Source: a phage. From it: a stretch of DNA of 64,000 nucleotides. The notes beneath the pieces are model-generated. The model did not search any database and was not told where the DNA came from. It was given only the letters and a program-made list of their open reading frames with translations. The stretch is taken from sequence record PV806337.1, one strand, 5' to 3'. Positions 15,576 through 53,748 of this stretch are shown piece after piece. Both the position numbers and the translations under genes were made by a program. The first letter of the stretch is position 1. Each line of letters opens with the position of its first letter.

Positions 15576-18421
15576 AAAAAATATTAGATAGTGCTAGAAA
15601 CTACTTAAAAAATAATAGCAGAATAAAAACTGCTAGTCTAATTTCTCTAGAGTTACCTGGCTCTACTGGTACTAGTACTGCTTTTATTTATTTAACTGAT
15701 TATTTTAGGGATGTACTATATAATGGCATCCTATACCAGGCAGGTAAAGTTAAGTCTATTAGCTCACACAAACAAAATAGAGATTTATCTATTGGTAGTC
15801 TATCTTTTACTATTACTGGTACAGCACAAGATGAAGTACTAAAACTAGTACAAAATGGTGTATCCTTCTTAGATAGAACAGTATCAATTCATCAAGCAAT
15901 TATTACTGAGGATGGTTCTATTCTACCAGTAGACCCAGATACAAATGGTCCTTTACTGTATTTTAGGGGGAGAATTACTGGAGGAGGTATTAAAGATAAC
16001 ATTAGTACCTCTGGAGTAGGAACCTCTACAATTACCTGGAATTGTTCTAACCAATTCTATGACTTTGATAGAGTTAATGGTAGATATACTGATGACGCTT
16101 CCCATAGGGGGCTTGAAGTTGTAGCAGGACAATTAGTTCCATCTAACGGAGCTAAAAGACCTGAGTACCAAGAAGACTATGGGTTCTTTCATGCTAATAA
16201 AAGTATATCTATACTAGCAAAGTACCAAGTACAGGAAGAAAGGTATAAGCTAAAATCAAAGAAAAAACTATTTGGCTTATCTAGAAGCTATAGCCTTAAA
16301 AAGTACTATGAAACTGTTACTAAGGAAGTAGATATAGATTTTAACCTTGCTGCTAAATATATACCAGTAGTTTATGGTGTGCAGAAAATACCGGGAATAC
16401 CTATTTTTGCGGATACAGAACTACACAATCCTAATATAGTTTATGTAGTATATGCCTTTGCTGAAGGGGAGATAGACGGTTTTCTTGATTTTTCCTTTGG
16501 CGATAACCCTATGATTTGTATGAATGATAATGATAGTTCTTCCAGAACCTGCTTTGGTGTTAAAAAAGTGGCTGGGGACACCATGCAAAGAATAGCGTCA
16601 GGAACACCTTCTAGTAGTCCTTCCGTGCATGGGCAGGAGTATAAGTATAATGATGGGAATGGTGACATAAGAATTTGGACGTATCATGGAAAACCTGACC
16701 AAACGGCTTCTGAAGTACTAGTAGATATAGCTAAAGAACGTGGGTTCTACCTTCAGAATATGAATGGCAATGGACCGGAGTACTGGGATGCTAGGTATAA
16801 ACTACTAGATACTGCATACGCAGTGGTGCGCTTCACTATTAATGAAAATAGAACTGAGATTCCTGAAGTTAGTGCTGAAATTCAAGGTAAAAAAGTAAAA
16901 GTCTATCATTCTGATGGTAGAGTAACTGCTAATAGTACTAGTTTAAATGGTATTTGGCAAACACTTGATTACTTAACCTCTGATAGATATGGCGCTAATA
17001 TTACCATTGATCAGTTCCCCCTTCAGCAATTAATACAGGAAGCAGCTATTTTAGATATTATAGATGAATCCTACCAAGTATCTTGGCAGCCATATTGGAG
17101 ATACGTTGGGTGGACTGATCCACTAGCAGAAAATAGACAAATAGTACAAATGAATACTATTCTGGATACATCTGAATCAGTATTTAAAAATGTGCAAGGT
17201 TTGTTAGAGTCCTATGGTGGGGCTATTAACAATTTATCTGGCCAGTATAGGGTTACTGTAGAAAAATACTCTAATACTCCATTAGAGATTAATTTTCTAG
17301 ATACTTACGGTGATTTGGAGCTATCTGATACTACTGGTAGAAATAAATTCAACTCAGTTCAAGCATCTATTGTGGATCCTGCCCTTAGTTGGAAAACTAA
17401 TGCCATTACATTCTATAACTCCAAGTATAAGGAACAGGACAAGAACCTAGATAAAAAACTACAACTATCTTTTGCTAATATTACTAATTATTATACTGCA
17501 AGAAGTTTTGCGGATAGGGAACTTAAGAAATCCAGATACTCAAGAACACTTTCTTTCTCATTGCCATATCAATTCATTGGTATTGAGCCTAATGATGCTA
17601 TTGCATTCACGTATGATCGTTATGGATGGAACAAAAAGTATTTCCTAGTTGATGAGGTTGAAAATTCTAGGGAAGGAAAGATAAATGTTACTCTACAGGA
17701 GTATGGAGAAGATGTATTCATCAACTCTGAGCAGGTTGATAATAGCGGTAATGATATTCCTGATATTAGTAATAATGTCCTTCCTCCTAGAGACTTTAAG
17801 TATACCCCTACTCCTGGCGGTTTAGTAGGCTCTATAGGTAAAAATGGTGAGTTATCCTGGCTTCCGAGTCTAACCAATAATGTAGTTTATTACTCTATTG
17901 TACATTCAGGCCATGCCGAACCTTACATAGTACAACAGTTAGAGACCAACCCTAACGAACGTATGATCCAAGAAATAATTGGAGAACCAGCAGGTCTGGC
18001 TATATTTGAGATAAGGGCAGTAGATATTAATGGTAGAAGAAGTTCCCCGGTGACTCTGTCTATAGAACTTAACTCTGCTAAAAACCTTAGTGTAGTATCC
18101 AATTTTAGGGTAATTAATACTGCTTCCGGAGATGTAACTGAGTTTGTTGGCCCAGATGTGAAACTAGCCTGGGATAGAATACCTGAAGAAGATATAATAG
18201 AGAGTATATTTTATACCCTTGAAATACACGATTCACAAAATAGGATGTTAAGAAGTGTACGTATTGAAAATCAGTACACTTATGACTATTTATTAACGTA
18301 TAATAAGGCAGACTTCGCTCTCCAGAACAGCGGTGCTCTAGGTATAAATAGAAAATTATATTTTCGTATTAGGGCTGAAGGGGATGATGGAGAACAGTCT
18401 GTGGAGTGGGCATCCATTTAA
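15572..18421 (+). CDS. baseplate hub / tail-associated protein (pb3-like)
   Basis: 949 aa following Dit; C-terminal fibronectin-III-like beta-rich repeats. Confidence 0.75.
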   Translation: MKKILDSARNYLKNNSRIKTASLISLELPGSTGTSTAFIYLTDYFRDVLYNGILYQAGKVKSISSHKQNRDLSIGSLSFTITGTAQDEVLKLVQNGVSFLDRTVSIHQAIITEDGSILPVDPDTNGPLLYFRGRITGGGIKDNISTSGVGTSTITWNCSNQFYDFDRVNGRYTDDASHRGLEVVAGQLVPSNGAKRPEYQEDYGFFHANKSISILAKYQVQEERYKLKSKKKLFGLSRSYSLKKYYETVTKEVDIDFNLAAKYIPVVYGVQKIPGIPIFADTELHNPNIVYVVYAFAEGEIDGFLDFSFGDNPMICMNDNDSSSRTCFGVKKVAGDTMQRIASGTPSSSPSVHGQEYKYNDGNGDIRIWTYHGKPDQTASEVLVDIAKERGFYLQNMNGNGPEYWDARYKLLDTAYAVVRFTINENRTEIPEVSAEIQGKKVKVYHSDGRVTANSTSLNGIWQTLDYLTSDRYGANITIDQFPLQQLIQEAAILDIIDESYQVSWQPYWRYVGWTDPLAENRQIVQMNTILDTSESVFKNVQGLLESYGGAINNLSGQYRVTVEKYSNTPLEINFLDTYGDLELSDTTGRNKFNSVQASIVDPALSWKTNAITFYNSKYKEQDKNLDKKLQLSFANITNYYTARSFADRELKKSRYSRTLSFSLPYQFIGIEPNDAIAFTYDRYGWNKKYFLVDEVENSREGKINVTLQEYGEDVFINSEQVDNSGNDIPDISNNVLPPRDFKYTPTPGGLVGSIGKNGELSWLPSLTNNVVYYSIVHSGHAEPYIVQQLETNPNERMIQEIIGEPAGLAIFEIRAVDINGRRSSPVTLSIELNSAKNLSVVSNFRVINTASGDVTEFVGPDVKLAWDRIPEEDIIESIFYTLEIHDSQNRMLRSVRIENQYTYDYLLTYNKADFALQNSGALGINRKLYFRIRAEGDDGEQSVEWASI

Positions 18422-44096: not shown

Positions 44097-44339
44097 TTAC
44101 GATTCCTTGAGCAAAGAAGCAAGTTCAGCATAGACTTTATCTAACTCAAAGCCTATGCGAAGAGACACGTTAGTTTTCCGTTGTTTAAGTAACCACTCGG
44201 ATATGTTAGGGATGCCAGCTAATCTATGTGGTACCACCCTACATAACTTTTCCGAAGTGTCGTAAACAGGAACTTTACGTTCTTTTACTGGGAACTTCCT
44301 TATTTCCCATTTTTTATTCTTCACTGTCATTTCTAGCAC
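44097..44339 (-). CDS. hypothetical protein
   Basis: 80-aa ORF. Confidence 0.4.
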   Translation of the reverse strand: MLEMTVKNKKWEIRKFPVKERKVPVYDTSEKLCRVVPHRLAGIPNISEWLLKQRKTNVSLRIGFELDKVYAELASLLKES

Positions 44340-47103
44340 CTAGTTCTGCCATTGCTTCATCATGCATATGTTTCTCCTCATCAGTCATAAACTTATATGG
44401 GATTGGCATACACTCGATTTTACAATAGGTTCTGTACCAGTCTACAATATTCTCCGTGTTCATATCCTTACCAATACCCATCATACCAAGATACATTCTT
44501 GCATATTTAGGGTTAGCACTCTGACCTGTTTTAAGGAAGAAATCTTTCTTCTTACCTTTCAGAGCTTCTATGAATGGTTTGATAGTGACGTTTGAACACT
44601 TCTTAATATCTTCCCAGAACATCTCGTGCATCTTATGGAAGAATGCAGCCCGATCATTAGGTTTATCCTTGATATATTGTTCAACATGCTCAACTGTTAC
44701 ATCTTTAATAGACTCAAGATGGTAATAGCGAACAAGAAGTAGTTTAGCTTCATACGCATCTGCATGTCGTGGAGCACAATAATCAGGAGTTGAATACAAA
44801 ATGGCTTTGATTCGCTCTTCTGTATACTCTTTACCTGCACCTTCGATAGTTCCCCAGCTTTCACTGAAAATATCAATAGTTGCACCCTGATCAAGCAAGT
44901 AATAACGTAAAGTACTAGTATAGTTCCTAGACTCCAGCTCCCTGCGACGTGCGTATAATTGCTGTGCTAACTCCAGCCAACCTTCATCAATGTTATATTG
45001 TTCAGAACCTGCGGAGAATCCACTCGTAGATTTATCAATAAAATAATAAATGTTCTGAGCACCACGGTCGCGCCTGATTGCTTGGAAACGCATGTTTGGC
45101 GCCTGGTTACTAGTTCTAGTAATAACAAATACGTTATCAAAATAGTTGAAGTCAACTCCACTCGTTACGGATGGACTACATAATAAGCAATCAATTTGTT
45201 GGTCAATTAGCTCATTAGTTGTATAATCCAGAATACGTCTAATATCCACATCAGATGTAGAGTTTGAGTGGATTTCCTTAACTAACGCACCCGTATTACG
45301 ACGCAATGCCATGCCCTTCTCATTCAGTTCATCTGGCCCACAGTCAGATACTAGGATAGATTTCTCACCCATCTCTAGAGAAGTCTGAAGTGCAACCCAA
45401 ATACTGGATTCATCAGGGAACTCATAAGCATGAGCTTTTGATAGCATTTTACGGTGATGATTATAAAATGCAACCGGTTTATCAAACTCAATCAAAGAAC
45501 CATATGCTTCAATTGTTTCTGCACTAATATCCCCATCAGATAATATAATGATTTTTGCAGTTGCAAGAATATCCCGAAGAACCTGAATACATTCACGACG
45601 TTGTTTAACAACCGGGGCGAATAATAGGTCGTTCATTACTGCATCACATTCATCGATAAAGATTGCATCAATTTGACCAATAAAACTCTTGAACTTATGC
45701 AAAGAGTGAATAGTTGTGGACATACGGTCAATAGCACCACGCTTAAAATTAAGCATATCTACAGACTTATCGTATTGTCCTGCACTAAATTTCTTAGCAT
45801 TTGAAGATACCAGTGCTCTAGTATTGGTAATTGCTAAAAAATTACCTTTAATAACTCCTGAATCTAACCAACGCACAACCGCCGTGGTTTTACCTGTGCC
45901 TAAACTCGCTTTTACAAAAGTCATATAACCTTCTGGTGGCACAGTATTTAGTTTCAAGAAATTATCAGTTTCTAGAGAATTAGTTTCTAGCTTTTTAAGT
46001 GGAATACCTTTTAAAATATCGGGTATATCGCGTTTAGAATTATTAACAAACGCTTTCAGAGCCTGCTTACGACCGTTATTAAAATAATCTTGAATATTAC
46101 GACTGTTATCTTTAGTTGCGATATATTCTGATAAGGCTGGACGGATTTCTTTTTCTAGCCATGCAAAATCAACACCATCCTCTAATGCTCTATGGTATAG
46201 TTTGGGGATAATACGCAAGTACACCCCATCCTCAGCTTCTTCTAGTTCGCTGATAGTTTCCTCTACTTTATCAGAGGCAGCTTTTTTACCTTTAATTTGA
46301 TCGAGTAAAGAGTAAAACTCCTCCTTAAACTCACCTCTAGTTGTTTCATAGTCAACCAGATTATTTGGTAAATTTACTTTAGAACCTTTAACAAATACCA
46401 GACGTGAAGCACCCTCCGCTTTAAACGGATCTACTATACCATCGGTAAATAACGGATCTGCAAAATAATGGAGCTGTACGGAAGAGTAATAAGCTAAGTC
46501 GGCAATATCAAAGCCGTACTTTTGTCTACTACTTTCATTGATAGATGTAAATAAGAATTTGATTTGACCCTGAGTTACTTTAACATTAGATTCTAGTATT
46601 AAGTGCATTCGGATACCTGGTTTTAGCCCAGCCGAAGACGATGCATGAGCGATAAACCCTGCATCAAGAGGAAACATATCCTCACTAATACTATTTAACA
46701 TCCTAATAATATGTCGAGCCATGCCAACAAGATCAAACTTGTTACAACCACCTGTATCTACAATACCATCCACGTCCATTGCAATTATATGACTTGGGTT
46801 AGATACATTAAAGTTGCCCTTCTTACGTCGCACATTATTTTTAGGTGCAAGACATCGACCTCGTACCGCAACGATATGAGGGTCAGACGTTAAACGTCTC
46901 ATAAGAGGAAGCATTTCTACTAGGGTTTGAGGATCAACTTCATCAATTACATCAAACTTGAAGGGCATTGAGGCTGGTTTACCTTCAGGATGCTTTGAGG
47001 AAAATCTTTTAGCAAAAAGATAGTCTTCTGCTTTAACTTCTCGCCAATTGCCTGTGGCTAAATCGCGATGAAATCCTGCATGACCTTGTAGGATTGAGAA
47101 CAC
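44314..47103 (-). CDS. large replication-associated P-loop NTPase (helicase-like)
   Basis: Walker A SLGTGKTT, Walker B IFIDECD; start set at GTG 47103 preceded by AGGAG; ORF-track start 47181 adds a hydrophobic junk-like N-terminus. Confidence 0.6.
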   Translation of the reverse strand: MFSILQGHAGFHRDLATGNWREVKAEDYLFAKRFSSKHPEGKPASMPFKFDVIDEVDPQTLVEMLPLMRRLTSDPHIVAVRGRCLAPKNNVRRKKGNFNVSNPSHIIAMDVDGIVDTGGCNKFDLVGMARHIIRMLNSISEDMFPLDAGFIAHASSSAGLKPGIRMHLILESNVKVTQGQIKFLFTSINESSRQKYGFDIADLAYYSSVQLHYFADPLFTDGIVDPFKAEGASRLVFVKGSKVNLPNNLVDYETTRGEFKEEFYSLLDQIKGKKAASDKVEETISELEEAEDGVYLRIIPKLYHRALEDGVDFAWLEKEIRPALSEYIATKDNSRNIQDYFNNGRKQALKAFVNNSKRDIPDILKGIPLKKLETNSLETDNFLKLNTVPPEGYMTFVKASLGTGKTTAVVRWLDSGVIKGNFLAITNTRALVSSNAKKFSAGQYDKSVDMLNFKRGAIDRMSTTIHSLHKFKSFIGQIDAIFIDECDAVMNDLLFAPVVKQRRECIQVLRDILATAKIIILSDGDISAETIEAYGSLIEFDKPVAFYNHHRKMLSKAHAYEFPDESSIWVALQTSLEMGEKSILVSDCGPDELNEKGMALRRNTGALVKEIHSNSTSDVDIRRILDYTTNELIDQQIDCLLCSPSVTSGVDFNYFDNVFVITRTSNQAPNMRFQAIRRDRGAQNIYYFIDKSTSGFSAGSEQYNIDEGWLELAQQLYARRRELESRNYTSTLRYYLLDQGATIDIFSESWGTIEGAGKEYTEERIKAILYSTPDYCAPRHADAYEAKLLLVRYYHLESIKDVTVEHVEQYIKDKPNDRAAFFHKMHEMFWEDIKKCSNVTIKPFIEALKGKKKDFFLKTGQSANPKYARMYLGMMGIGKDMNTENIVDWYRTYCKIECMPIPYKFMTDEEKHMHDEAMAELGARNDSEE

Positions 47104-47602
47104 AACAATACTCCTGTGTTGGAAATAAAATAAGTTTTCTTTAGGACTATTCAGAAAGAATAGAACAACTGTTACTGTCAATTTCTCAACAAATTAATCG
47201 CAAATACTGAAGTGGGGTGGCAACTTCCACTTTCACGCTGCGCTGCTGCTTTGCTATATCGCACAAATCCTTGAGGATGGCCGCTAAGCCAGATTTGCTC
47301 ACCTAATGCTTCATATACTAGCTCATACTAGATGCAATATAACTTACAGAATCACGTCTCGGAGTTTTTCACTCCTCCCATCTCACTTCACAACCACCTC
47401 ATACTAGGTTGCTTCGAGGCCTTACCAGGGTTCCTATGGGACGCAGATCGCTAAGTATTCTATTAACTATTTGTTTAAAAACTAACACGTAACAGTTAAA
47501 ACAACCCTTAATGGGGCAGCCTAACTGTTCCGTATCGCGGATTGTAAACAAGAAAAATTAGCAAAATCAATTTTTACTAATGTCTCTCAATTCAATATAA
47601 AT

Positions 47603-47631
47603 ATTATATCAAGATTTTGGGCATCCTGCAA
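47603..47631 (-). promoter_or_regulatory. T5-type sigma70 promoter heading a long leader
   Basis: - strand TTGCAG, 17-bp spacer, TATAAT, then ATTTATATTGAATTGAGAGAC. Confidence 0.6.
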
Positions 47632-47722
47632 GTAAAATTTTCCGGATGGTGCTATCATTGGTCTTGAGTACGGATAAAACCGAGCCAAAATGACTCGGTA
47701 ATCAGAGTTCAGCTAATAAAAA

Positions 47723-48115
47723 TCATTCATCATTTAAGCCTGGAACATAAATCCCAACACGGTTTAATTGTTCTTTAGCTTCTTTGAGAATATCTGGAGT
47801 GTACTCCCAAATATCATCTTCCACCTGTAAAAGATGGGGCGAACAACCATCATCCGACACACGACATATGGCCAAACCACGTGGGTGGAACAAAGAGAAA
47901 TTTAGGGCAACAATTAAACCCATAGCAGACAACTCATTCCAATCCAACTCCCATTCCCCCGCGTAGCCGGATAGGAAAACACCAACACAGGGATCATCTA
48001 TTTGCTGCTCCGGAAAAGTGAAGGAGGCTTGTCTTACCCCCAACCAACGTTGTAGCAGCTTCTCCGCACGTTTCACCAAACTAGGATCAATCTGACGCCA
48101 ATATACTTGTTCCAT
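47723..48115 (-). CDS. hypothetical protein (paralog of adjacent ORF)
   Basis: 130 aa; AAGGAGG RBS; shares PC(I/V)G…W.EL…MGL(I/V).ALN…LF.P and C-terminal G(Y/I)..PGL with the ORF at 48125-48553. Confidence 0.55.
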   Translation of the reverse strand: MEQVYWRQIDPSLVKRAEKLLQRWLGVRQASFTFPEQQIDDPCVGVFLSGYAGEWELDWNELSAMGLIVALNFSLFHPRGLAICRVSDDGCSPHLLQVEDDIWEYTPDILKEAKEQLNRVGIYVPGLNDE

Positions 48116-48124
48116 TCTGCCTCC

Positions 48125-48553
48125 TTAAGCAGTTAAACCTGGGATCATATACCCGAAACGTCGAAGTTTCTGAATCCCCTCATTTACTTCTTCCGGTGAG
48201 TAAGACCAACCATAACGTTCATTAACCTGAAAACCAGGAGATTCACTAGTTTTATAGTTAACAACAAGGCGATGCTTAGCAGGCATAAACAGCTTATAAT
48301 TTAACGCAAAAACTAAGCCCATTTCGTCTAACTCTTTCCAGCCCACAATCTCTTCAAGACCATCCTCTACCTGCACAATTAAACCAATACAGGGGGCCTC
48401 ATCAATATCATCTTTAAAAGCAAAGGAGATTTCGTTATTCTCACACCATATTTTCAAGGAGTTAATAGCCTCATTATACAGGCTAGCCGGTAGAGTACGC
48501 CAAAAGTTAACCAAAATTGGGTTAGCTTCTTTAGAGAATACATTATTGAACAT
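48125..48553 (-). CDS. hypothetical protein (paralog of adjacent ORF)
   Basis: 142 aa; same motif architecture as 47723-48115. Confidence 0.55.
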   Translation of the reverse strand: MFNNVFSKEANPILVNFWRTLPASLYNEAINSLKIWCENNEISFAFKDDIDEAPCIGLIVQVEDGLEEIVGWKELDEMGLVFALNYKLFMPAKHRLVVNYKTSESPGFQVNERYGWSYSPEEVNEGIQKLRRFGYMIPGLTA

Positions 48554-53421: not shown

Positions 53422-53442
53422 TAAATTCTCCTTAATTCACAT

Positions 53443-53471
53443 ATTATACATAATTCCACCCCATACGTCAA
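53443..53471 (-). promoter_or_regulatory. sigma70 promoter (divergent region)
   Basis: - strand TTGACG, 17-bp spacer, TATAAT, then AAGGAG RBS and ATG at 53421. Confidence 0.65.
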
Positions 53472-53643
53472 CTACATTTTTCTAATACTATTTGACTTTT
53501 GATTTTTATCAATTTTTATTGATGCTATACAGCATAATATCTTTACATATAAATAAATGATTATCTAGTATCATATTTCTACCTTTATAAGCAAGTAAAT
53601 TTTTTATTTAAAAGCAATATCATAGGTTTATTTAAAATTATAC

Positions 53644-53672
53644 TTGCTTTTTGCTGTAAACCTTGTTATAAT
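53644..53672 (+). promoter_or_regulatory. T5-type sigma70 promoter upstream of phoH
   Basis: TTGCTT, 17-bp spacer, TATAAT. Confidence 0.7.
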
Positions 53673-53748
53673 ATATTTGTAAGTTGATAAACAAGATCTC
53701 TTTGTTGATCCTCTGTTAGAAGCGAAGTACACTATAGGAGTGTTATTT

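What the first reader, a model, noticed from the sequence alone, without database searches (positions are those of the whole stretch)
47104..47722. Roughly 620-bp non-coding leader between a consensus promoter and the large replication NTPase gene
The genome is otherwise gene-dense, yet a consensus promoter at 47603-47631 is followed by about 500 nt with no ORF of 60 aa or more in any frame and no credible RBS-led small ORF, before the 929-aa Walker-A protein. The segment has local stem-loops (for example GGAGTgaaaaACTCC on the - strand). It could be a structured regulatory 5' UTR, a small RNA, or a replication origin beside its initiator-like helicase.
Basis: seen in the sequence. Interest (0 to 1): 0.55.

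Follow-up and report, generated by a model that had tools for sequence, protein, structure and literature searches.

The report
Structured leader RNA before T5 helicase
The 620-bp gap is real: it encodes a conserved, heavily folded leader RNA of about 490 nt, absent from RNA databases, that sits ahead of the replication-initiator helicase D2 in phage T5 and its relatives, and its function is still unknown.

Summary
The window is a T5-like phage (99.9% identical to T5_ev212). Region 47104-47722 (minus strand) lies between a terminator and the GTG start of D2, the UL9-like "replication origin binding" helicase. It holds the longest ORF-free stretch in the 64 kb. A conserved T5 early-type promoter (TTGCAG-17-TATAAT) starts a leader of about 490 nt with no conserved peptide.

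Comparison with about 50 relatives shows a structured RNA on the sense strand:
- a hairpin at the 5' end;
- an invariant 110-nt 5' block;
- an AU-rich long-range helix of about 39 bp;
- a GC-richer multi-hairpin core of about 245 nt;
- a 3' hairpin, then the RBS.

The core occurs as unrelated-looking sequence "alleles" (43% identity) that fold the same way. Pairing statistics are strong: 98.5% of cells paired against 37-46% in slid controls, and 29 pairs changed on both sides against 1-5. One hairpin with the loop GCUUAGCGGC recurs with six different stems. Rfam has no match.

Best reading: a cis-acting leader that sets D2 expression, possibly through processing and D2 feedback. A replication-primer or origin role and an excised trans-acting RNA are not excluded. 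Classical origin features (iterons, DnaA boxes) are absent.

The parts
47673..47698 (-). Intrinsic terminator of the upstream operon (ACCGAGTCATTTTGGCTCGGT followed by TTTTAT)
   Evidence: Read from the sequence. Conserved in relatives. Annotated as a terminator in T5 NC_005859, AY587007 and Lindwurm.
47603..47631 (-). T5 early-type sigma-70 promoter: -35 TTGCAG (47631-47626), 17-nt spacer, -10 TATAAT (47608-47603). The A/T-rich stretch upstream and a start site near 47596 are inferred.
   Evidence: conserved, including the Klebsiella, Providencia and Pectobacterium phages. Annotated promoter 'T5P32'. ATATT discriminator motif of early promoters (PMC7472727).
47489..47598 (-). Invariant 5' block of the leader. 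It is 98-100% identical between phages whose flanking genes are only 74-91% identical.
47550..47588 (-). Hairpin at the 5' end of the transcript (GAGAGA / AUUAGUAAAA-auuga-UUUUGCUAAU / UUUCUU). An equivalent hairpin at the start of the transcript is predicted in every lineage examined.
   Evidence: helix 1, invariant within types A and B; a different sequence in the same position in the Klebsiella, Providencia and Pectobacterium phages.
47499..47522 (-). Small hairpin HP2 (AGGCUGCCCCAUUAAGGGUUGUUU)
   Evidence: helix 4. It is invariant, so covariation gives no test.
47454..47498 (-). 5' strand of the long closing helix P1 (about 39 bp in five segments, AU-rich, 20% GC)
   Evidence: Types A and B have different sequences but keep the pairing. 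A G-C / G-U / A-U series occurs at alignment columns 107-434. Equivalent helices of 33-45 bp are predicted in the Providencia and Pectobacterium phages.
47166..47208 (-). 3' strand of the long closing helix P1
   Evidence: (inverted repeats I2, I17).
47209..47453 (-). Core domain: a base helix (CUGCGU/GCGCAG), a two-hairpin subdomain, a single hairpin, a second two-hairpin subdomain and a terminal hairpin. GC is 48% against 39% for the window. It exists as exchangeable 'alleles': type A here, type B in T5, and a mosaic in phiR201.
47361..47375 (-).
   Evidence: (alignment pair 222-237 changes G-C to A-U).
47263..47298 (-). Signature hairpin: outer stem GCAAAUC/GAUUUGU, inner mini-hairpin GCU-UAGC-GGC (GGCTTAGCGGCC at 47290-47279), and a 3'-side internal loop of 8-10 nt
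   Evidence: (helices 17 and 18). The same motif is found with six different outer stems in types A, B, phiR201, Klebsiella, Providencia and Pectobacterium.
47209..47234 (-). Hairpin with an 11-nt loop AAGUUGCCACC. The loop is nearly the same in Klebsiella phages (AAGUGACCACC), with a different stem.
   Evidence: alignment pair 369-385 changes U-A to G-C; helix 20.
47147..47163 (-). 3' hairpin CUAUUC-uuucu-GAAUAG inside the invariant 3' block (47133-47175)
   Evidence: helix 21. The Klebsiella version is CUAUC-cuu-GAUAG.
47101..47115 (-). D2 translation initiation region: SD AGGAG (47115-47111) and GTG start (47103-47101). It is predicted to be partly paired, either locally or with leader nt 51-65 (47546-47532).
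   Evidence: pair probabilities 0.3-0.5; the sequences are invariant, so covariation gives no test.
44314..47103 (-). D2 / 'replication origin binding protein' gene (929 aa). It is a UL9-like SF2 bipolar helicase and the gene served by the leader.
   Evidence: Pfam Herpes_ori_bp; phrog_3712. Wong et al. 2013, PMC3632103.

Best explanation
The region is the transcribed, non-coding leader of the D2 helicase mRNA, and it is a large, conserved, structured RNA.

Layout (shown or predicted):
- Host RNA polymerase starts at a T5 early-type promoter, with the start inferred near 47596.
- The transcript begins with a hairpin, runs through an invariant 110-nt block, and then forms an AU-rich long-range helix of about 39 bp.
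- That helix closes a GC-richer core of about 245 nt made of roughly eight helices.
- A 3' hairpin and the D2 ribosome-binding site follow. No terminator lies in between.

Shown: the fold exists on the sense strand and is under selection across T5-like phages. I put confidence in that part at about 0.9.

Inferred mechanism: the leader acts in cis to set how much D2 is made and when.
- The 5' hairpin would protect the mRNA.
- The closing helix brings the invariant 5' and 3' blocks together next to the initiation region. At 33-45 bp it is long enough to be an RNase III processing stem.
- The core is a binding platform, most plausibly for D2 itself (autogenous control). The core type travels with a two-allele segment of D2 (aa ~360-425).

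The confidence value given here refers to this cis-regulatory mechanism, not to the existence of the structure.
For: Identity and context:
- The window is a T5-like phage, and the gene downstream is D2 (PMC3632103).
- The gap upstream of D2 is kept at 530-890 bp in all 34 IMG/VR relatives.
- There is no conserved ORF and no terminator-like site inside the leader.

Structure:
- RNAalifold on 13 type-A and 14 type-B leaders gives the same architecture, although the cores are only 43% identical.
- On the joint alignment, 98.5% of cells are paired against 37-46% when partners are slid. 29 pairs change on both sides against 1-5. The covariation score is 0.287 against 0.03-0.06.
- Independent compensatory changes occur within single lineages: 7 pairs in type A, 6 in type B, 3 in the Providencia pair and 1 in Klebsiella.
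- The GCUUAGCGGC hairpin recurs with six different stems.
- Long closing helices are predicted in four lineages with unrelated sequences.

Strand:
- One-sided changes are U-A to U-G or G-C to G-U in the sense orientation.
- Sense MFE is -135.6 kcal/mol against -105.9 for the antisense strand.

Link to D2:
- The non-coding gap upstream of D2 is kept even where the upstream gene differs. DUF7415 is absent upstream in the Providencia, Pectobacterium and Vibrio phages.
- D2 aa ~360-425 has two alleles in complete linkage with core type in 29 genomes. The closer D2 N-terminus is less linked, and the upstream genes do not follow core type in the pairwise identities.
- In GenBank phages, 165 records carry the A-type D2 segment and 164 carry a full type-A leader.
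Against: - No transcript data were available, so the start site, any processing and the RNA's stability are all inferred.
- Occlusion of the RBS is ambiguous: pair probabilities are 0.3-0.5 with a competing local hairpin, and the sequences are invariant, so covariation cannot test it.
- The RBS context differs between the Klebsiella, Providencia and Pectobacterium phages.
- The Pectobacterium phage has a consensus promoter (TTGACA-17-TATAAT) between the structured RNA and D2. There D2 need not depend on the leader, which argues for a function beyond cis control.
- Yersinia phage phiR201 breaks the simple link between core type and D2 segment: its D2 segment is 86% identical to type A, but its core is B-like and Klebsiella-like.
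- Much of the A-versus-B covariation comes from two clades, so the number of independent events is smaller than the number of cells counted.
- The near-total invariance of the 5' block is more than simple hairpins would require. It could reflect a DNA-level function.
Confidence: 0.5

Rival explanations
1. Replication-initiation RNA. The structured transcript from the early promoter acts at the mid-genome origin as a pre-primer or persistent R-loop, or as a platform that recruits or loads the D2 helicase. This would resemble ColE1 RNA II, or the promoter-plus-unwinding-element origins of T4 and T7.
For: - The locus lies at 48.4-48.9% of the T5 genome, and T5 origins were mapped near the centre of the molecule (10.1101/866236).
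- It is immediately upstream of the UL9-like initiator helicase, whose amber mutants make no DNA (PMC3632103).
- A strong early promoter is followed by AU/AT-rich segments of 20-34% GC.
- The size (about 490 nt) and the degree of folding recall ColE1 RNA II (from my own knowledge).
- The core type is linked to a D2 segment, as initiator and origin specificities are linked in lambdoid phages (the analogy is from my own knowledge).
Against: - The origin has never been mapped to this fragment in any source I could reach.
- No G-rich or other hybrid-forming feature was identified.
- A tightly folded RNA disfavours R-loop formation unless it is specifically built for it.
- The RNA is continuous with the D2 coding sequence, so a cis-regulatory role is the simpler reading.
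Confidence: 0.17
2. Excised trans-acting non-coding RNA. RNase III cuts the closing helix of 33-45 bp and releases the roughly 245-nt core as a stable RNA with its own function, such as host takeover, counter-defence or scaffolding a phage protein. D2 translation would be only incidentally downstream.
For: - The closing helix is far longer than is needed to close a domain. It is AU-rich and kept in four lineages with unrelated sequences.
- The core behaves as an exchangeable cassette between invariant flanks, and is a mosaic in phiR201.
- The Pectobacterium phage has its own promoter for D2 downstream of the RNA.
- Core loops are conserved across lineages: GCUUAGCGGC and AAGUNNCCACC.
Against: - There is no evidence of cleavage or of a stable product.
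- There is no terminator and no other 3'-end signal.
- No partner or target has been identified.
- The invariant parts are the flanks rather than the core, which suggests the essential function lies in the flanks.
Confidence: 0.18
3. DNA-level element. The region is the duplex or single-stranded DNA origin, or a lagging-strand initiation signal, recognised by D2. The apparent RNA structure would really be intrastrand pairing of the displaced sense DNA strand, as proposed for the HSV oriS* hairpin bound by UL9 and for plasmid single-strand origins.
For: - D2 is the UL9 homolog.
- The position is central in the genome.
- The 5' and 3' blocks are more conserved than the neighbouring genes.
- AT-rich inverted arms flank the core.
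- Covariation alone cannot tell RNA from single-stranded DNA of the same strand.
Against: - There are no iterons or multi-copy direct repeats.
- No DnaA box with one mismatch or fewer lies in 47104-47722, and the window-wide count equals chance.
- About 18% of the closing-helix pairs are G-U. These would be G-T in sense DNA and A-C mismatches on the other strand, which argues against a cruciform or duplex-symmetric site.
- Of three copies of the AACAGTT motif, only the two that pair with each other co-vary. This is not what a repeated protein-binding site would do.
- A promoter and a hairpin at the transcript's 5' end sit exactly at the start of the folded region.
Confidence: 0.08
4. Missed small genes or a decayed gene: the region encodes short proteins, as some GenBank records annotate it.
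For: Some automated annotations place three 'hypothetical proteins' of 33-60 aa here, for example Salmonella phage SCF.
Against: - No ATG-started ORF of 20 aa or more lies on the sense strand.
- Candidate ORFs start at TTG or GTG, mostly without a Shine-Dalgarno sequence.
- No peptide is conserved between leader types. Similarity appears in all frames and only where the nucleotides are identical.
- Single-nucleotide indels occur among close relatives.
- The substitutions are those expected of base-paired RNA.
Confidence: 0.02

Closest known systems
Autogenously regulated phage replication-gene leaders (T4 gene 32 pseudoknot; T4 gene 43 operator)
   Same: An RNA structure in the 5' UTR of a replication gene that could be bound by the gene's own product to limit translation. 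Here the leader's core type is linked to a segment of the downstream protein.
   Different: The T4 operators are short (tens of nt) and overlap the RBS. This leader is about 490 nt, with a multi-helix core more than 100 nt from the RBS. No binding has been shown. The comparison rests on my own knowledge of T4.
RNase III processing stems (flanks of rRNA precursors, lambda N leader, T7 early mRNA sites, rRNA intervening sequences)
   Same: A long-range helix of 33-45 bp, formed by sequences flanking a structured domain, that would release the domain when cut.
   Different: No cleavage has been demonstrated. The helix is interrupted by small bulges. The enclosed domain is not an rRNA or a tRNA.
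ColE1 RNA II pre-primer; T4 oriF/oriG and T7 primary origins (promoter-driven origins)
   Same: A strong promoter, a transcript of a few hundred nt, AT-rich DNA downstream, and a location at or near a replication start region beside replication genes.
   Different: No RNA-DNA hybrid, RNase H site or mapped origin is known here. The sequence and fold are unrelated: Rfam found no match.
Large structured non-coding RNAs of unknown function, often found in phages (ROOL, GOLLD, OLE, HEARO)
   Same: Several hundred nucleotides, many helices supported by covariation, conserved loop nucleotides, phage-borne, function unknown.
   Different: No Rfam family matches, including these. This RNA is continuous with an mRNA, is tied to one gene (D2), and has a cassette-like core between invariant flanks.
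HSV-1 oriS / UL9 and lambdoid ori-O initiator-origin specificity pairs
   Same: D2 shares the UL9 helicase-domain family (Pfam Herpes_ori_bp). A non-coding element beside the initiator gene has alleles that travel with a variable initiator segment.
   Different: The UL9 DNA-binding domain and its recognition boxes have no counterpart shown here. There are no repeated binding sites. The evidence favours RNA rather than duplex DNA.

Membership tests
Any Rfam 15 family (riboswitches, ribozymes, leaders, sRNAs, ROOL/GOLLD/OLE, RNase P, tmRNA, 6S) | A covariance-model match at or near the family's gathering score | tested here: not met
   There was no match at gathering score in the whole window. 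Only chance-level hits (12-15 bits, E 2.8-9.6) appeared in 46900-47900. There was no hit at E<=0.1 in 11 related loci. No tRNA or tmRNA was found.
Structured cis-regulatory mRNA leader | Lies between a promoter and the regulated gene's start codon, on the same strand, with no terminator in between | tested here: met
   Promoter at 47631-47603, GTG at 47103, and no terminator-like site on the minus strand in between. The same layout holds in relatives.
Structured cis-regulatory mRNA leader | Secondary structure conserved and supported by compensatory base changes | tested here: met
Structured cis-regulatory mRNA leader | An expression platform: structure that occludes the RBS or forms a terminator in one state | tested here: inconclusive
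   The initiation region is predicted to be partly paired (p 0.3-0.5) with leader nt 51-65 or in a local hairpin. The sequences are invariant, so there is no covariation test. The RBS context is not conserved outside the E. coli/Salmonella group.
Structured cis-regulatory mRNA leader | A defined ligand or protein effector | not testable with these tools
   There is only an indirect hint: linkage of the core type with D2 aa ~360-425.
RNase III processing stem | A double-stranded RNA helix of about two turns or more | tested here: met
   Predicted helices of about 39 bp (type A), 35 bp (type B), 33 bp (Providencia) and 45 bp (Pectobacterium), with small bulges.
RNase III processing stem | Cleavage in vivo or in vitro that depends on rnc | not testable with these tools
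   No transcript-end data were available.
Iteron/DnaA-type theta replication origin | Multiple direct repeats (iterons) that bind the initiator | tested here: not met
   There is no multi-copy direct-repeat family beyond short matches of the kind the tool warns are often chance. The three AACAGTT copies behave as pairing partners rather than as sites.
Iteron/DnaA-type theta replication origin | DnaA boxes | tested here: not met
   None with one mismatch or fewer in 47104-47722. The window has 22 against an expected 19.8.
Iteron/DnaA-type theta replication origin | An AT-rich unwinding element next to the initiator gene | tested here: inconclusive
   Segments of 20-29% GC exist at 47454-47498 and 47166-47208, but they are the two strands of the RNA closing helix.
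Iteron/DnaA-type theta replication origin | Replication experimentally shown to start here | not testable with these tools
   The only information is the statement that T5 origins lie near the centre of the genome (10.1101/866236). The locus is at 48.4-48.9% of T5.
ColE1-type pre-primer RNA | A persistent RNA-DNA hybrid and RNase H processing at the origin | not testable with these tools
   No data. There is no sequence or structure similarity to RNA II in Rfam.

The most novel reading that the evidence does not exclude
The leader is an RNA-based origin or initiator-specificity module. The folded transcript (or its excised core) is recognised by a matching segment of the D2 helicase (aa ~360-425) and recruits or loads D2 to start replication in the middle of the T5 genome. 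The exchangeable core 'alleles' and D2 alleles would then form matched specificity pairs. That would be a replication-initiation mechanism in a classic model phage in which a large structured RNA, rather than DNA iterons, defines the origin.
Probability: 0.12. Interest if true: 0.85.

Novelty: new variant of a known kind. Interest (0 to 1): 0.6.

Why it matters
T5 is a founding model phage, yet how its replication starts is still unknown, and D2 is its only candidate initiator.

A leader RNA of about 490 nt, supported by covariation and conserved across T5-like phages of E. coli, Salmonella, Klebsiella, Yersinia, Providencia and Pectobacterium, is not annotated in the GenBank records I inspected. 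It has no match in Rfam, and I found no paper describing it in the library searched.

Large, complex-folded bacterial or phage RNAs of unknown function are rare and have repeatedly led to new biochemistry.

This one comes with concrete handles for experiments:
- an RNase III-like stem;
- an invariant loop motif;
- natural core 'alleles' with the same fold;
- a linked variable segment in D2.

These make the control of the initiator, and possibly the origin itself, directly testable. In practical terms, automated annotation places spurious 'hypothetical proteins' in this interval in many deposited genomes.

Tried and rejected
- **Known RNA families.** Rfam at gathering score on the window, permissive on the locus, and on 11 related loci found nothing. 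ARAGORN found no tRNA or tmRNA.
- **Small proteins.** Six-frame peptides of five leader types were compared by blastp. Similarity appeared only where the nucleotides are identical, and in all frames.
- **Classical origin features.** There are no iterons and no DnaA boxes.
- **Functional link to the upstream DUF7415 genes.** One record calls such a gene 'RNA-binding protein'. I rejected the link because the upstream genes of the Providencia, Pectobacterium and Vibrio phages are not DUF7415. Sequence search of the T5.107 homolog against PDB found nothing.
- **The 5' hairpin plus U-run as an attenuator.** The stem has a single G-C pair, the terminator scan does not flag it, and other lineages have no U-run after their hairpin. 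A 5'-end stabiliser is more likely.
- **A covariance model of the core across lineages.** I abandoned this because the MAFFT alignment put the 3' stem strands of the Klebsiella and phiR201 sequences in the wrong columns. Single-sequence folds were used instead.
- **Extending the fold to Vibrio T5-like phages.** They keep a promoter-led, ORF-poor gap with conserved islands. The alignment was too poor to support a structure: 71 of 213 predicted pairs had unpaired cells.
- **Scans of public collections.** The metagenome and IMG/VR scans added few new lineages.
- **Two resemblances from memory.** GGCUUAG..GCCAUC resembles the 23S rRNA L11-binding region, and GUGCGA is the complement of the UL9 box core. 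Both hold only in some lineages and received no support from the Rfam searches. I treat them as chance.
- **Literature.** Searches for a T5 transcriptome, an origin map or a description of this RNA found nothing relevant. Bourguignon et al. 1976 is not held.
Full report
**What the window is.** BLAST of 47000-47800 against GenBank phages gives 99.9% identity to Escherichia phage T5_ev212 and EC148, and 526 matching records, nearly all T5-like (Demerecviridae) phages of Salmonella, Escherichia and Klebsiella. All genes around the finding are on the minus strand.
- The gene downstream of the gap (44314-47103) is the 929-aa protein annotated 'replication origin binding protein' (T5.108).
- It hits Pfam Herpes_ori_bp at aa 394-533 and PHROG 3712.
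- Wong et al. characterised it as D2, a bipolar SF2 helicase related to herpesvirus UL9 and proposed to be the T5 replication initiator (PMC3632103).
- The gene upstream (47723-48115) and its neighbour are DUF7415 paralogs of unknown function.

**Checking the observation.** The interval 47104-47722 is non-coding.
- 47182-47722 is the longest stretch in the 64 kb with no ORF of 60 aa or more in any frame: 541 nt, with the next longest at 318 nt.
- The sense strand of the leader has no ATG ORF of 20 aa or more.
- Peptides from the five leader types are similar only where the DNA is identical, and then in every frame.
- The upstream operon ends in a hairpin-plus-U terminator at 47698-47673.
Its -10 is a perfect TATAAT, but its -35 is TTGCAG (3 of 6 matches), so 'consensus' is too strong a word and the simple scan missed it.
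- The promoter is nevertheless conserved in every relative and annotated in both T5 reference records, as 'T5P32' in one. It carries the ATATT discriminator motif that Klimuk et al. report for T5 early promoters (PMC7472727).
- No terminator-like site lies between the promoter and D2.

**The gap is conserved.** In 34 IMG/VR relatives, with D2 N-terminal identity from 100% down to 55%, the ORF-free interval upstream of D2 is always 533-886 bp.
- Where it is longer, the extra length is a small additional gene before the terminator, or an optional 97-nt module.
- Vibrio and Aeromonas members of the family also have 700-1800 bp of ORF-poor sequence upstream of their D2 homolog. In the Vibrio phages this gap is promoter-led.
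- More distant D2 homologs outside the family have an ordinary AT-rich divergent promoter region instead.

**Anatomy from comparison.** In the direction of transcription the parts are:
- the promoter;
- an invariant 5' block (47598-47489), which is 98-100% identical between phages whose flanking genes are only 74-91% identical;
- a central segment of about 310 nt that exists in discrete versions: type A (this window) and type B (T5 itself) are 43% identical, which is close to random;
- an invariant 3' block (47175-47133);
- the RBS and the GTG start.

**It is a folded RNA on the sense strand.**
- RNAalifold run separately on 13 type-A and 14 type-B leaders gives the same architecture. It consists of:
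  - a hairpin at the very 5' end (47588-47550);
  - a small hairpin (47522-47499);
  - a long closing helix of about 39 bp in five segments (47498-47454 with 47208-47166);
  - a base helix;
  - a two-hairpin subdomain;
  - a second two-hairpin subdomain;
  - a terminal hairpin (47234-47209);
  - a 3' hairpin outside the closing helix (47163-47147).
- Within type A, seven pairs change on both sides (for example CUGCGU/GCGCAG to CUACAU/GUGUAG). Within type B six pairs do so, in the two Providencia phages three, and in the Klebsiella group one.
- On a plain MAFFT alignment of all 27 sequences, the formal count gives 98.5% of cells paired against 37-46% when partners are slid by 1-3 columns. 29 pairs change on both sides against 1-5, and the covariation score is 0.287 against 0.03-0.06.
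- Two caveats apply. The structure was derived from the same alignment, and much of the signal is the A/B split, so independent events are fewer than cells.
- One-sided changes are U-A to U-G or G-C to G-U in the sense orientation.
- The closing helix of this phage has about seven G-U pairs.
- The sense strand folds to -135.6 kcal/mol (z -3.1) against -105.9 (z -2.1) for the antisense strand.
- The core is GC-richer (48%) than the window (39%), while the helix arms are 20-29% GC.

**A signature motif.** The only core sequence shared by all lineages is CUUAGCGG.
- Single-sequence folding of 48-nt windows around it gives the same shape in types A and B, Yersinia phiR201, and the Providencia and Pectobacterium phages. 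For the Klebsiella phage the same shape comes from the group alignment fold, not from the single-window fold.
- That shape is an outer stem, a mini-hairpin GCU-UAGC-GGC (CCU-UAGC-GGG in Pectobacterium, a G-C to C-G swap), and a 3'-side internal loop of 8-10 nt.
- The outer stem has six unrelated sequences.
- Long closing helices are also predicted in the Providencia (about 33 bp) and Pectobacterium (about 45 bp) leaders, again with unrelated sequence.
- phiR201 has a mosaic core. Its first half is B-like with many compensatory changes, and its second half is Klebsiella-like. The core therefore evolves by module exchange between invariant flanks.

**What it is not.**
- No Rfam family matches, in the window or in 11 relatives, and there is no tRNA or tmRNA.
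- There are no iterons and no DnaA boxes.
- Of the three AACAGTT-type motifs, only the two that pair with each other co-vary (G-C, G-U, A-U). This fits base pairing, not a repeated protein site.
- The association is with D2 and not with the upstream DUF7415 genes, which are absent upstream of D2 in other lineages.

**How it most likely works (inference).** The transcript is the D2 mRNA leader.
- The 5'-terminal hairpin is placed where it could protect the 5' end.
- The closing helix juxtaposes the two invariant blocks next to the initiation region.
- Folding predicts partial pairing of the spacer and GUG with leader nt 51-65, or alternatively a local hairpin. The probabilities are only 0.3-0.5 and the sequences never vary, so this cannot be tested by comparison.
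- A helix of 33-45 bp is long enough to be an RNase III substrate, so processing that separates the 5' block, the core and the D2 message is plausible.
- A hint at the effector comes from D2 itself. Among 29 genomes, D2 has a two-allele segment (aa ~360-425, between the predicted HTH and the Walker A motif) in complete linkage with the core type: 18 fixed differences out of 30 variable columns.
- The physically closer D2 N-terminus is less linked: 5 fixed differences out of 30 variable columns.
- The upstream genes do not follow core type in the pairwise identities.
- In GenBank phages, 165 records carry the A-type segment and 164 carry a full-length type-A leader.
- This pattern fits co-adaptation, that is, D2 binding its own leader. 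It could also be plain linkage, and phiR201 does not follow a simple rule.

**Rivals.**
- *Replication role.* A role as a pre-primer, R-loop or helicase-loading RNA stays open. The locus is at 48.4-48.9% of the T5 genome, and origins were mapped near the centre (10.1101/866236).
- *Excised trans-acting RNA.* This is favoured by the long helix, by the cassette behaviour, and by a consensus promoter lying between the RNA and D2 in the Pectobacterium phage.
- *Purely DNA-level origin.* This is disfavoured by the wobble-pair pattern and the lack of repeats. A structure in the displaced sense DNA strand cannot be strictly excluded.
- *Small genes.* This reading is rejected.

**Novelty.**
- The two T5 reference records inspected mark only the promoter and the terminator here. 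Lindwurm marks a terminator and ribosome-binding sites. Others have nothing or spurious small ORFs.
- Searches of the paper library found no description of this RNA.
- It is a new RNA family of a known general kind, the structured mRNA leader.
- It is unusual for its size, its very long closing helix, its exchangeable core, and its position before the candidate initiator of a model phage whose origin is unknown.

Noticed in passing
L012, L036, L025, L072, L073 (between the 5' hairpin and TTGTTTACAATCC). Equivalent insertion point in the window is about 47550.: An optional 97-nt module flanked by the direct repeat TTTTTCTT sits just after the 5' hairpin in some type A, type B and phiR201 leaders. 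It folds into a hairpin of its own (-20 kcal/mol). It is found in 51 GenBank phage records, always as a single copy, so it is not a multi-copy mobile element.
   Followed up: partly
Window 45826-46024 (D2 codons ~360-425): D2 has a two-allele segment between the predicted HTH and the Walker A motif. In 29 genomes it is in complete linkage with the leader core type (A or B), while the closer N-terminus is less linked and the upstream genes do not follow core type. GenBank counts are 165 records with the A-type segment against 164 with a type-A leader. phiR201 is an exception.
   Followed up: partly
L028 (about 1845-2010); also L008, L015, L020, L059: One relative carries two tandem copies of 'promoter + 5' hairpin'. 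Several others have a different promoter version (TTGCAAGGGAG...TATAAT) and a different upstream gene (162 aa), but keep the identical 5' hairpin. The hairpin therefore goes with the transcript start rather than with one particular promoter.
   Followed up: no
L032 / L033 (Pectobacterium phages), about 55 nt upstream of the D2 start: A consensus promoter (TTGACA-17-TATAAT) lies between the structured RNA and D2, so D2 there may be expressed independently of the leader. A second, partial CUUAGCC motif also lies nearby.
   Followed up: no
L004, L007, L011, L036 (between the T5.107 homolog and the terminator): An extra small gene (about 60 aa, MNKEFWKIKGK...) overlaps the stop codon of the T5.107 homolog in some relatives. 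This explains their longer 'gap' of 788-886 bp.
   Followed up: partly
Window 47723-48115 and 48125-48553: The two genes upstream of the leader are paralogs carrying Pfam DUF7415. The annotators of Klebsiella phage Spivey call the homolog an 'RNA-binding protein'. No PDB sequence match was found, and the genes are not linked to the leader in other lineages.
   Followed up: partly
L040-L043, L048-L053 (Vibrio and Aeromonas T5-like phages): These phages have 700-1800 bp of ORF-poor sequence upstream of the D2 homolog. In the Vibrio phages the gap is promoter-led, with a conserved hairpin at its start and conserved islands (for example TAAGAGTG, ACGTAGAGA) across 50% sequence divergence. This is probably an analogous or very diverged leader, but the structure could not be established.
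   Followed up: partly
Window 16312-16320, 44692-44700, 47167-47175, 47489-47497: GTAACAGTT occurs four times in the window against 0.55 expected. Two copies are the pairing ends of the leader's closing helix. The other two, one of them inside D2, were not examined.
   Followed up: no
GenBank records such as PP735124 (Salmonella phage SCF) and several Klebsiella phage records: Automated annotation places three or four 'hypothetical proteins' of 33-60 aa inside this non-coding leader. They are not conserved and are probably artefacts.
   Followed up: yes
Window 53422-53739: This is the second-longest ORF-free interval (318 nt), at the switch from minus-strand to plus-strand genes. It is presumably a divergent promoter region.
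   Followed up: no
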